Counted from the stretch's first letter, positions 6,001 to 9,000 are shown. The stretch is 64,000 nucleotides of DNA from Escherichia coli (GCF_016026235.1 NZ_CP065613.1); one strand, 5' to 3'. Numbers are program-made.

Positions 6001-9000
6001 CAGTCAATGAGTATCACAACACGAGACATTCCCCGCGTAATCTTTTGGGTAATTCGCTGAAAAATGGTGGAAACCTCATTTTGCAAATGTCGATTCCCCA
6101 ACAGTCGATCCACCCGCTTTATTTTGTTTTTAACTGATGCCGTACCGGTTAAATGACGCCCGATACTGGTAAGTGTGAGGGAAGCGCCATTTATTACAGC
6201 ATTAGTTGCGTCAATCAGTGATTTTTGACGGTAAAGATGCAAAGGGGCCAGTATGTTGTTAAGGAAATTTTGGCATAATGAACGTGCAGGCATAGTGGTG
6301 ATCTCCTTGAAATTGTTAGCACAATCAATTAGATCACATCTCACTATGCCTGTCTTGTTTTCTGGGGATTCCTCAGAGGATTTCCTCCCCCTTTCGTTCA
6401 AAATCTGTAGTTTCTGGCTAAATATGCGCCTCACGCAATACTTTCTGCTCTGGCTGACGAATCGTCGTAGAAAGCGCCAATGACAGAATCAGCAGAGCAA
6501 AGATGACGTAGAACGTCACATAGAAGCCGCCAAACAGTGAGGCAATAATCGAACCACAAATGCTACCGATACCGAAACCGAGGTAAATCACACCGTAGTT
6601 TTTCGCCAGGTTATTGAGGCCGAAGAACTCACTGACCAGTGACGGAAAGACGGTAATAGTGCCGCCAAAGTTAAATGCCACGCAGGCAATCGCTGCAAAG
6701 AACATCACTGCATTCAATGGTGCAAACAGCAGGGCCGCCATACCCACCAGCGAAATTACCTGACCAATGGTGATAACACGGATACGGGCGATTTTGTCAG
6801 ACAGAATGCCCAGCACCAGACGACCTGAAAGGTTAGCAATAGAAATAACCGTTACTGCGTTGGCTGCGGAAATTGCATCAAGATGCGCCAGGCTCTGAGC
6901 AATATCTTTCGCCACACCAATCACATACAGACCGCTCATGCAGGCAGTAAGGAACATCACCGCTAACATCCAGTACTGCGGTTTACGCATCGACTCTGCC
7001 AGCGTGTAATCTTTCTCCACTACGCCATTGCTGGTTTTCACTTCCTGTTTTGGTGCGTCTTTCATTAACGTTGCGCCGAAAACAATCATCACCAGCGCAA
7101 TCGCTCCCCAAATCACAAAGGTTTTTTCCAGACCGACCGTTTCCAGCAGCTGCGTGTCGATAAATTTGAAACCCAGGCTACCCAGACCATAAGAACCGAT
7201 AGCGAACGCGGAGATCAGACCTTTACGCTCCGGGAACCACTTCACGCAGTTAGAGAGCGTCAGCAGGTAACCCGCGCCATCCGCCAGACCGACCAGCACA
7301 CCGGCGCTTAACCACAGCATCATCAGGTTGTCAGAATGCGCTGTCAGGAAGAACCCTAATCCCAGCAAAATGCCGGAAGCGATGGTGACGCGTTTAACAC
7401 CAAAACGTTCCTGCAATTTGCCCGCAACAGAAGACGAAATTGCCAGCCCCAGACTTAACAAGCCGAAAGAGAAAGCGACCTGGCTTACCGGCGCATCCAG
7501 CTTGGCGGAAAGCGCGCCGTTAAACAGGCTCCAGGTATAAACCGACCCCAGCGCAAACTGGGTAATGATAGTACCGATGAGTGTCAGCCAGCGGGTACGC
7601 TGATAATTTGAAGGTGTCATGGCAGTATTCCTGCAGTAATAAAAAGGAAAAATCTCTGCCGACAACCATAACGAAGTGCACTTTATGCCTGGGGAAAAAC
7701 GGCATGAAATGCCATCAGAACGGAATGAAATGCCTTAGTTCAGGAATGAATGACGCGACAATTATTCACCAAATTTATTATTTGGTAAGTTAGCACCCAC
7801 TATCGCCACAACTATTGTTATCCAATGGTTTCAATTGTGATTGTTACGTTAAAATCTGGCACTAACCCCCATCGTATACAGATAATCGCTATTGTTAGTG
7901 GTATTTTCTGCCTGAGATAGCGCGGCATAGGCGGCAATATTTTGATTGAGCAACATATCAGCGCCTACGGTGACATCCAGCCAGTTGCCGTTCTGGTTTG
8001 TCGCCGTCATCCGGCTCAGGCCTGATTGCGCCTTCCAGATATTCTCGCCAAATTGCTGGTTATAGCTGATTTGCGCCCAGGGTCGGAGATCGCCAAGCCG
8101 GGAGTCAACACGCCAGCCTAAGGTACTCACGCTGGCATGCCATAACGGATCGGTCAGCGTGGTAGTACTGTCGCCAAACTCGTTATACATCGAGGTGGTT
8201 GTGCCATCGTAATGTAATGCCGCGACCGGGCCAGTTGTAACCTGTTCATATAAAGGAAAATTCCAGCCCATACTCATACTGCTGGTCACATCCACAGGGG
8301 TTTCTTCCGCCAGATTGACTTCCAGTCCCAGCGCCCTTTGGCTACTTTGAATACGTTGCGACAAAATATCGTTGTAATCAGGTTGATGATCACTATCCCA
8401 GGTGTAACGCTCTGTGGAATGCCCGGGTTGCGTATCAACGATATATTCTTGTTGCCAGGCGTAAGCTGTGTTGAGAAAAAAGGCACTGATTACCACACTC
8501 GCCAGCAGGCTTAGCTGCCAGCGACCACCGCTTTTTTTTATGATCATTAACACGACTCCAGGGAAGAGCCGAATTCGGCAATATTATTGTCATTGTATGA
8601 AGGATATCGGGCATAGTAGCCCTGTATTAAATATTGACTTTTTCACCGATGCGTCAAGAAAAGCGGCTGAAATTTTTACGATCGGGTACATAGCGAGGGA
8701 AAGTATGGAACGTTGCGGCTGGGTGAGTCAGGACCCGCTTTATATTGCCTACCATGATAATGAGTGGGGCGTGCCTGAAACTGACAGTAAAAAACTGTTC
8801 GAAATGATCTGCCTGGAAGGGCAGCAGGCTGGGTTATCGTGGATCACCGTCCTCAAAAAACGCGAAAACTATCGCGCCTGCTTTCATCAGTTCGATCCGG
8901 TGAAGGTTGCCGCAATGCAGGAAGAGGATGTCGAAAGACTGGTACAGGACGCCGGGATTATCCGCCATCGCGGGAAAATTCAGGCAATTATTGGTAATGC

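What the first reader, a model, noticed from the sequence alone, without database searches (positions are those of the whole stretch)
7704..7734. Conserved YpdB-type direct-repeat operator upstream of yhjX, 1.3 kb from the IS insertion
The GGCATTTCAT-N11-GGCATTTCAT motif is intact on the yhjX sense strand, implying that pyruvate-responsive control of this transporter is preserved even though an IS sits 41 bp beyond the yhjX stop codon.
Basis: partly seen in the sequence, partly recalled or inferred. Interest (0 to 1): 0.3.

Follow-up and report, generated by a model that had tools for sequence, protein, structure and literature searches.

The report
Known YpdB activator site upstream of yhjX
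The repeat is the already well-studied DNA site where the E. coli pyruvate-responsive regulator YpdB (PyrR) switches on the transporter gene yhjX; it is intact here and ordinary, and the nearby insertion sequence only removed the gene's terminator.

Summary
GGCATTTCAT-N11-GGCATTTCAT lies on the minus (yhjX sense) strand at 7734..7704 and ends 83 nt before the yhjX ATG (7620). It is the only such match in the window, and chance expectation is about 1e-7.

It is the published YpdB (now PyrR) binding site of the yhjX promoter, with site A distal and site B proximal. About 220 bp upstream of the ATG are identical to E. coli K-12, including the 58-nt fragment used for YpdB binding kinetics. The 31-mer occurs in 5386 of 5426 complete E. 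coli genomes. It lies upstream of yhjX orthologues in 18 Escherichia, Citrobacter, Intestinirhabdus and Raoultella species.

YpdB is an activator, so "operator" is a loose term. The regulator genes are outside the window. In the closest complete genome, YpdB is identical to K-12 and YpdA differs by one residue.

The IS is ISEc60 (5084..6375), 42 nt past the stop codon, and cannot affect the site. It did insert inside the yhjX terminator hairpin with a 12-bp duplication, separating the hairpin from its T-tract.

Verdict: real, already known, low interest. Minor extras are a third, degenerate, phase-conserved box (7754..7743) and a strict palindromic ISEc60 target.

The parts
7725..7734 (-). YpdB/PyrR site A (distal, high-affinity) core GGCATTTCAT. 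The extended 13-nt box GGCATTTCATTCC spans 7722..7734.
   Evidence: Site A is the upstream repeat, the one mutated in the 'A bs' oligo of PMC4847170.
7714..7724 (-). 11-nt spacer TCCGTTCTGAT between the 10-nt cores. It is 8 nt (GTTCTGAT) between the 13-nt boxes. Repeat period is 21 bp.
7704..7713 (-). YpdB/PyrR site B (proximal, low-affinity, cooperative) core GGCATTTCAT. The extended box GGCATTTCATGCC spans 7701..7713.
7743..7754 (-). Third, degenerate box GTCATTCATTCC. It lacks one T relative to sites A and B and is separated from box A by 8 nt, so it is in 21-bp phase. Function is inferred.
   Evidence: CATTCATTCC is invariant in 21 of 21 enterobacterial yhjX promoters while the flanking spacers vary. 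Repeat family D2.
7665..7670 (-). Most likely -10 hexamer TATGGT (inferred). The poor -35 position CCCAGG lies at 7688..7693. The alternative -10, CATAAA, lies at 7682..7687.
   Evidence: TAT..T is conserved in all 21 aligned promoters, whereas CATAAA is lost in Intestinirhabdus and Raoultella. No transcription start data were available.
7629..7632 (-). Shine-Dalgarno AGGA, 8 nt before the ATG.
6418..7620 (-). yhjX CDS (400 aa plus stop), an oxalate/formate-antiporter-family MFS transporter.
   Evidence: 98% identical to K-12 YhjX. TIGR00890 scores 473 bits and NF049980 scores 344 bits.
6376..6387 (-). Left copy of the 12-bp target duplication GAGGAAATCCTC. This is the yhjX terminator hairpin, now without its T-tract.
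   Evidence: An empty-site terminator is detected in O157, and none is detected here.
5084..6375 (-). ISEc60 (IS4 family, 1292 bp). The transposase CDS is 6293..5103, in the same orientation as yhjX.
5065..5083 (-). Right copy of the duplication GAGGAAATCCTC, followed by C and TTTTTT. This is the displaced terminator 3' half and T-tract.

Best explanation

Published for K-12 DNA that is identical to this sequence:
- External pyruvate is sensed by the histidine kinase YpdA/PyrS, and in some strains by BtsS.
- Phospho-YpdB binds as a monomer first to the distal repeat (site A, 7734..7725).
- It then binds cooperatively and transiently to the proximal repeat (site B, 7713..7704), which is proposed to provide the protein interface for recruiting RNA polymerase and gives pulsed, strongly pyruvate-induced yhjX transcription.

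Inferred here:
- The two boxes, each effectively 13 nt with 8 nt between them, lie just upstream of a weak -35 position, with TATGGT (7670..7665) as the -10. This is the usual LytTR arrangement.
- Regulation in this strain is the same as in K-12.

Shown from sequence: the downstream ISEc60 has no bearing on the site, but it removed the yhjX intrinsic terminator.
For: - The motif is exact at the stated place and unique in the window.
- Window 7757..7700 equals the 58-nt PyhjX fragment used for YpdB-D53E SPR. In that work site A had KD about 1.2 nM, site B about 21 nM, and binding was lost when site A was mutated (PMC4847170).
- The upstream region is identical to K-12 MG1655 from the ATG through about 220 nt.
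- yhjX is intact and 98% identical to K-12 YhjX.
- The 31-mer is present once per genome in 5386 of 5426 complete E. coli genomes, never on plasmids.
- The exact motif occurs upstream of, and in sense with, a yhjX orthologue in 18 representative species of Escherichia, Citrobacter, Intestinirhabdus and Raoultella.
- ypdA, ypdB and ypdC are annotated intact in the closest genome. YpdB is 100% identical to K-12, Asp53 is present, and YpdA carries only R137C.
- yhjX is induced about 678-fold by 3 mM pyruvate in K-12 (PMC7660256).
- B. subtilis LytT uses two 13-nt boxes 8 nt apart. Those authors noted the similarity to the YpdB site (PMC5626966).
Against: - Nothing contradicts the identification.
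- Function in this particular strain is untested.
- The regulator genes are outside the window and were checked only in a close relative.
- The primary paper defining the site (Fried et al. 2013) and any transcription start data could not be read, so the position relative to the promoter is inferred from conservation only.
- The consensus promoter scan did not pick up this promoter. That is expected for an activator-dependent promoter but gives no positive support.
Confidence: 0.93

Rival explanations
1. The site is intact but the control is not really preserved in this strain. Either the trans-acting YpdA/YpdB system is damaged in this IS-rich lineage, or loss of the terminator changes yhjX mRNA 3' end formation and stability enough to alter expression.
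For: - The lineage carries many ISEc60 copies: at least 36 places in FDAARGOS_943 and two copies within this window.
- One copy interrupts fryC only 7-8 kb from ypdAB in FDAARGOS_943.
- The yhjX terminator hairpin is cut off from its T-tract (versus 24, 72).
Against: - ypdA, ypdB and ypdC are full length and not flagged as pseudogenes in FDAARGOS_943. YpdB is identical to K-12.
- The promoter, 5' UTR and CDS are intact.
- Terminator loss usually changes transcript length, not inducibility.
Confidence: 0.07
2. The site and regulator are the same, but the physiologically dominant input is the non-cognate kinase BtsS (BtsS to YpdB cross-regulation, responding to acid- or serine-derived pyruvate) rather than YpdA.
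For: In uropathogenic strain UTI89, yhjX promoter activity depends on BtsS and YpdB and follows serine deamination to pyruvate (PMC9765748).
Against: - That was shown in a B2 uropathogen. This window is closest to an lpf1-positive lineage near O157-type sequences.
- In K-12 YpdA is the described sensor.
- Either way the signal is pyruvate and the DNA site is the same.
Confidence: 0.2
3. The repeat is a chance or relic tandem duplication without regulatory function.
For: None beyond the fact that 21-bp tandem units can arise by duplication.
Against: - Chance expectation is 1e-7.
- The sequence is identical to experimentally bound DNA.
- It is conserved across four genera while the spacers vary.
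Confidence: 0.01

Closest known systems
YpdB (PyrR) sites A and B in the yhjX promoter of E. coli K-12 (Fried et al. 2013, as cited in Behr et al. 2016, PMC4847170)
   Same: The sequence is identical over the two repeats, the spacer, both flanks and the whole 5' region down to the ATG. Gene, strand and distance are the same.
   Different: Nothing in cis. The strain background differs (lpf1 island, ISEc60 in the yhjX terminator, YhjX of 400 rather than 402 aa).
LytT boxes in the pftAB (ysbAB, lrgAB-like) promoter of Bacillus subtilis (PMC5626966)
   Same: Two direct 13-nt boxes 8 nt apart (21-bp period). They are bound by a YpdB homologue, induced by pyruvate, and control a pyruvate transporter. 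The authors noted the sequence similarity. Four Limosilactobacillus species carry the exact GGCATTTCAT-N11-GGCATTTCAT between lytST and lrgAB.
   Different: The target gene family differs (LrgA/LrgB-type rather than an MFS transporter). The regulator genes are adjacent to the target there but about 1.2 Mb away in E. coli.
BtsR (YehT) site in the btsT (yjiY) promoter of E. coli
   Same: It belongs to the paralogous pyruvate-responsive LytS/LytTR system, uses a direct-repeat architecture, and regulates a single transporter target.
   Different: The repeat sequence is different. PyjiY DNA served as the non-binding control for YpdB.
General LytTR regulator sites (AgrA, ComE, PlnC, VirR)
   Same: Two direct repeats of 9-11 nt separated by 11-13 nt, with cooperative binding of two monomers.
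   Different: There is no shared consensus sequence between subfamilies.

Membership tests
YpdB/PyrR binding site of the yhjX promoter | Direct repeat of GGCATTTCAT separated by 11 bp | tested here: met
   Exact match at 7734..7704 on the minus strand. Definition taken from PMC4847170.
YpdB/PyrR binding site of the yhjX promoter | Located upstream of yhjX, on its sense strand, in the yhjY-yhjX intergenic region | tested here: met
   83 nt before the ATG at 7620. The downstream protein is 98% identical to K-12 YhjX.
YpdB/PyrR binding site of the yhjX promoter | Same DNA as the fragment shown to bind YpdB-D53E in vitro | tested here: met
   7757..7700 is identical to the 58-nt SPR oligonucleotide. 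The region is identical to MG1655 over about 220 nt.
YpdB/PyrR binding site of the yhjX promoter | Cognate YpdA/YpdB encoded by the same genome | not testable with these tools
   These genes are not in the 64 kb window. In the closest complete genome (FDAARGOS_943) both are intact. YpdB is 100% identical to K-12 and YpdA carries R137C.
YpdB/PyrR binding site of the yhjX promoter | YpdB-dependent induction by external pyruvate in this strain | not testable with these tools
   This needs a reporter assay or RT-qPCR. Published for K-12 only.
LytTR-type regulator site (general architecture) | Two direct repeats of 9-13 nt with a 21-bp period, immediately upstream of a weak -35 | tested here: inconclusive
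   Repeat length and period are met. The position relative to the promoter rests on a conserved candidate -10, TATGGT, without transcription start data.
IS4-family insertion sequence (ISEc60) | IS4-type DDE transposase, terminal inverted repeats, and a 10-12 bp target duplication | tested here: met
   - NF033591 scores 360 bits against a cutoff of 152.
- The ends are TGAGGAATCCCCAG... and ...CTGGGGATCCCTCA.
- There is a 12-bp duplication, and the empty site is seen in O157.
- RefSeq names the element ISEc60.

The most novel reading that the evidence does not exclude
Two modest possibilities remain open.

(a) The phase-conserved third box GTCATTCATTCC (7754..7743) may be a third, weak YpdB contact that tunes the pulsed 'AB-BA' behaviour of the promoter.

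(b) ISEc60 separated the yhjX hairpin from its T-tract and lies in the same orientation. The several-hundred-fold pyruvate-induced yhjX transcription may therefore read into the element, coupling IS transcription to pyruvate. However, a strong fold-back hairpin appears to mask the transposase ribosome-binding site in such transcripts.
Probability: 0.2. Interest if true: 0.3.

Novelty: already known. Interest (0 to 1): 0.08.

Why it matters
It matters little beyond annotation. It confirms that this lpf1-positive, ISEc60-rich E. coli lineage retains the canonical pyruvate-responsive yhjX promoter. The site is among the most conserved non-coding 31-mers of the species, which makes it a reliable annotation landmark. 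The useful correction concerns the neighbouring IS: it leaves the regulatory site alone but destroys the yhjX terminator. It landed there because the terminator stem matches the strict palindromic target of ISEc60.

Tried and rejected
- The primary papers (Fried 2013, Behr 2014, Vilhena 2018) are not held. The site definition therefore comes from Behr 2016, and the promoter geometry is inferred.
- The sigma-70 consensus scan found nothing at the expected place. Its only nearby hit, TTACCA-16-AATAAT (7788..7761), is at chance level.
- Rfam found nothing in 4500..8600.
- CATAAA (7687..7682) was considered as the -10, which would put site B over the -35. I ranked it below TATGGT because it is not conserved in Intestinirhabdus or Raoultella.
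- I looked for a second YpdB target in the window. There is only one lone exact half-site (44631..44622) with no partner within 3 mismatches, so I treated it as chance.
- The long ORF 5103..6434, which starts inside the yhjX 3' end, is in a different frame from yhjX, so no fusion protein is formed.
- Pyruvate-driven transposase expression by read-through is weakened as an idea. A very stable hairpin (about 6352..6287, z = -4.9) pairs the transposase Shine-Dalgarno sequence and AUG.
- I first read the ISEc60 targets as terminator-specific. Ten sites show the determinant is the 12-bp palindrome itself, and several sites lie inside coding sequence.

Full report
**Observation**

On the minus strand the window reads ...CTGAACTAA GGCATTTCAT TCCGTTCTGAT GGCATTTCAT GCCGTTTTT... 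The two 10-mers lie at 7734..7725 and 7713..7704, separated by 11 nt. A pattern search finds this as the only match in the window even with three mismatches allowed, against 0.02 expected from shuffles. The expectation for an exact match is about 1.2e-7.

The ORF downstream on the same strand starts at ATG 7620 and stops at TAG 6420..6418. Its 400-aa product is 98% identical to K-12 YhjX. It also matches the oxalate/formate-antiporter MFS subfamily. The motif therefore lies on the yhjX sense strand, ending 83 nt before the start codon, inside the 228-bp yhjY-yhjX intergenic region 7621..7848.

**What it is**

Behr et al. [quoted passage not shown] Their 58-nt SPR fragment is identical to window 7757..7700.

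Their results on that DNA were:
- The phosphomimetic YpdB-D53E binds as a monomer to the upstream site A with high affinity (KD about 1.2 nM).
- It binds the downstream site B with roughly tenfold lower affinity and fast on/off rates.
- Mutating site A abolishes all binding.
- The proposed 'AB-BA' cycle explains pulsed yhjX expression.

An alignment with MG1655 shows no difference from the ATG up through about 220 nt. The four substitutions all lie further upstream, three in the distal part of the intergenic region and one in the yhjY 3' end. Every cis element studied in K-12 is therefore present unchanged.

YpdA/YpdB are now annotated as PyrS/PyrR in the K-12 record (PMC7730263). yhjX is reported as YpdB's only direct target. 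It is induced at 600 µM pyruvate or more, and about 678-fold by 3 mM pyruvate. Because YpdB activates transcription, the element is an activator site rather than an operator in the strict sense.

**Conservation**

The 31-mer is found once per genome, always on the chromosome, in 5386 of 5426 complete E. coli genomes. In an even sample down that ranking:
- about two thirds match all 31 nt;
- about 30% lack only the first base, and in the fetched example (MS6198) site A reads TGCATTTCAT;
- a few also differ at the last base.

A scan of one genome per species (298 Gb) for the exact pattern returned 30 loci, against a chance expectation of about 0.5. Eighteen are Escherichia, Citrobacter, Intestinirhabdus or Raoultella. 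In every one the motif is upstream of, and in sense with, a yhjX orthologue of 87-98% identity at nearly the same distance.

Those loci were selected on the 20 specified bases, so their invariance there is by construction. The flanks were not selected and still show a clear footprint:
- Each repeat extends to 13 nt (GGCATTTCATTCC and GGCATTTCATGCC) with 8 nt between.
- A third unit, GTCATTCATTCC (7754..7743), lies a further 8 nt upstream. Its CATTCATTCC is invariant in 21 of 21 sequences although the spacers on either side vary.
- CTTCG-TAT..T (TATGGT at 7670..7665), the AGGA Shine-Dalgarno sequence and the ATG are conserved.

The repeat finder sees the same 21-bp tandem structure.

**How it most likely works**

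Published for identical DNA: phospho-YpdB occupies A, then B, and activates transcription.

Inferred here: TATGGT is the -10, because TAT..T is conserved in all genera whereas the alternative CATAAA (7687..7682) is not. The -35 position (CCCAGG, 7693..7688) is then poor, and box B ends 7 nt upstream of it. That is the usual layout for LytTR-dependent promoters, and for B. subtilis PpftAB, where the LytT boxes lie upstream of the -35. I could not obtain a mapped transcription start, and the primary papers were not available. I give this geometry about 65% confidence.

The third box did not bind on its own in the published SPR, since the site-A mutant lost all binding. It may be a weak cooperative contact, a DNA-shape element, or a relic. 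Behr et al. note that flanking nucleotides influence expression in vivo.

**Is control preserved?**

In cis, yes. In trans, the regulator genes are about 1.2 Mb away in K-12 and are not in the window. The closest complete genome is FDAARGOS_943, which is 100% identical over the promoter query and shares the yhjX-ISEc60 junction. It has full-length ypdA, ypdB and ypdC. YpdB is identical to K-12 and retains Asp53, and YpdA differs only by R137C. I therefore consider preserved pyruvate control very likely but not proven for the source strain. In uropathogenic E. coli the input can come from BtsS rather than YpdA. That changes the sensor, not the site.

**The IS**

The element is ISEc60, an IS4-family IS of 1292 bp at 5084..6375. 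Its transposase gene (6293..5103) runs in the same orientation as yhjX. It begins 42 nt after the yhjX stop and is flanked by a 12-bp duplication, GAGGAAATCCTC (6387..6376 and 5083..5072).

The IS-free site in O157 strain 86-24 reads GAAAGGGGGAGGAAATCCTCCTTTTTTATT. That sequence scores as an intrinsic terminator there. In the window the left copy keeps a short hairpin but is followed by IS sequence. The T-tract now follows the right copy, 1.3 kb away, and no terminator is detected at the junction.

The IS is therefore irrelevant to the YpdB site but has removed the yhjX terminator, so read-through into the IS is likely. A very stable hairpin (about 6352..6287, z = -4.9) pairs the transposase Shine-Dalgarno sequence and AUG. 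This is the classical protection against outside transcription, so I do not expect pyruvate-driven transposase synthesis.

Downstream lies the lpf1 fimbrial operon. The lpfA1 ATG is at 4769, and 314 bp of its upstream region remains contiguous with it.

**Why the IS is there**

Ten ISEc60 flanks were compared: two in the window, and others in FDAARGOS_943, RMDEC364, RMDEC332, CFSAN029787/VL46 and 2023CK-01509. All show 11-12-bp duplications of one palindromic type, roughly GRGGAWWTYCCC:
- GAGGAAATCCTC
- GGGGAGTCCCC
- GGGAAATTCTCC
- GGGGATAATTCC
- GGGGATTCCCC
- GAGATTGTCCCC
- GGAGAATTCCCC
- GAGGATTTCTCC
- GGGATATCCCC

Some are terminator stems (yhjX, slyD/slyX, and one with a T-run between nupC and fryC), and others lie inside genes (mppA, mscL, fryC). 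From memory, this resembles the GGG(N)5CCC preference described for IS231 of the same family. I found almost no literature on ISEc60 itself. The yhjX terminator was hit because its stem-loop matches this target.

**Genome context**

No genome among the 5426 has the window's yhjX-ISEc60-lpfA1 arrangement. FDAARGOS_943 instead has yhjX-ISEc60-slyD and slyX-ISEc60-lpfA1, with reciprocal target halves. That is an inversion of about 255 kb between two ISEc60 copies, and the window represents the un-inverted state.

**Comparison with known systems, and verdict**

The element is not merely like the YpdB site. It is that site, base for base. Its 13+8+13 layout matches the LytT boxes of B. subtilis PpftAB, a similarity already noted by Charbonnier et al. 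2017. As a by-product of the species scan, four Limosilactobacillus species carry the exact E. coli motif between lytS-lytT and lrgA-lrgB. The L. vaginalis LytT is 36% identical to YpdB. This extends that known cross-phylum conservation.

The finding is real, correctly interpreted, already known and of low interest. The small additions are the phase-conserved third box, the common G-to-T variant of site A, the terminator disruption, and the ISEc60 target palindrome.

Noticed in passing
window 5072..6387: ISEc60 is inserted inside the yhjX intrinsic terminator hairpin. The 12-bp duplication GAGGAAATCCTC is the stem-loop itself. The left copy has lost the T-tract, which now follows the right copy. 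The IS-free O157 site scores as a terminator, and the window junction does not.
   Followed up: yes
window 5084..6375 and 59030..60321; L035, L038-L043: ISEc60 has a strict palindromic target, roughly GRGGAWWTYCCC, which is duplicated as 11-12 bp. This was seen at ten flanks in six strains. Some targets are terminator stems and others are coding sequence. Hardly any literature on ISEc60 was found.
   Followed up: partly
window 4245..7620 versus L001 and L038 (NZ_CP065615.1): None of the 5426 complete E. coli genomes has the window's yhjX-ISEc60-lpfA1 junction. The closest genome, FDAARGOS_943, has yhjX-ISEc60-slyD and slyX-ISEc60-lpfA1 with reciprocal target halves. That is an IS-mediated inversion of about 255 kb relative to the window.
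   Followed up: yes
window 7743..7754 (-): A third, degenerate box GTCATTCATTCC lies 8 nt upstream of site A, in 21-bp phase. CATTCATTCC is invariant in 21 enterobacterial yhjX promoters while the neighbouring spacers vary. It may be a weak third YpdB contact.
   Followed up: partly
L036 and L037 (E. coli MS6198, UID2309220013), equivalent to window 7734: About 30% of complete E. coli genomes, estimated from an even sample of hits, appear to carry TGCATTTCAT instead of GGCATTTCAT at the high-affinity site A; the substitution itself was read in two fetched genomes (MS6198 and UID2309220013). A few also change the last base of site B. The window has the canonical K-12 allele.
   Followed up: partly
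L032 4427..4457; also L009, L016, L018: Four Limosilactobacillus species carry the exact GGCATTTCAT-N11-GGCATTTCAT. In L. vaginalis, the one locus whose ORFs were read, it lies between lytS-lytT and lrgA-lrgB, with an L-lactate dehydrogenase gene next. Its LytT is 36% identical to YpdB. This extends the YpdB/LytT site similarity already noted for B. subtilis.
   Followed up: partly
window 6287..6352 (-): A very stable hairpin (z = -4.9) inside the ISEc60 left end pairs the transposase Shine-Dalgarno sequence and AUG with upstream IS sequence. It looks like fold-back protection against read-through from outside promoters such as PyhjX.
   Followed up: partly
window 44622..44631 (-): A lone exact GGCATTTCAT half-site lies about 40 nt upstream of the yibI-yibH start. 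No second repeat is present at the right spacing, so it is probably chance.
   Followed up: no
window 6418..7620 (-): YhjX passes the NCBIfam equivalog cutoff for 'L-lactate MFS transporter' (SfMCT, 344 bits against a cutoff of 320) and is named so by RefSeq. The literature treats it as a putative pyruvate transporter or exporter. It is 400 aa here and in O157, against 402 aa in K-12, with the difference at the extreme C-terminus next to the lpf1 island.
   Followed up: no
window 892..4769 (-): The lpf1 long polar fimbria operon (lpfA1, lpfB, and an 857-aa lpfC) lies downstream of the IS. lpfC is an uninterrupted ORF here but is a pseudogene with an internal stop in O157 strain 86-24. The IS lies 314 bp upstream of the lpfA1 ATG.
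   Followed up: no
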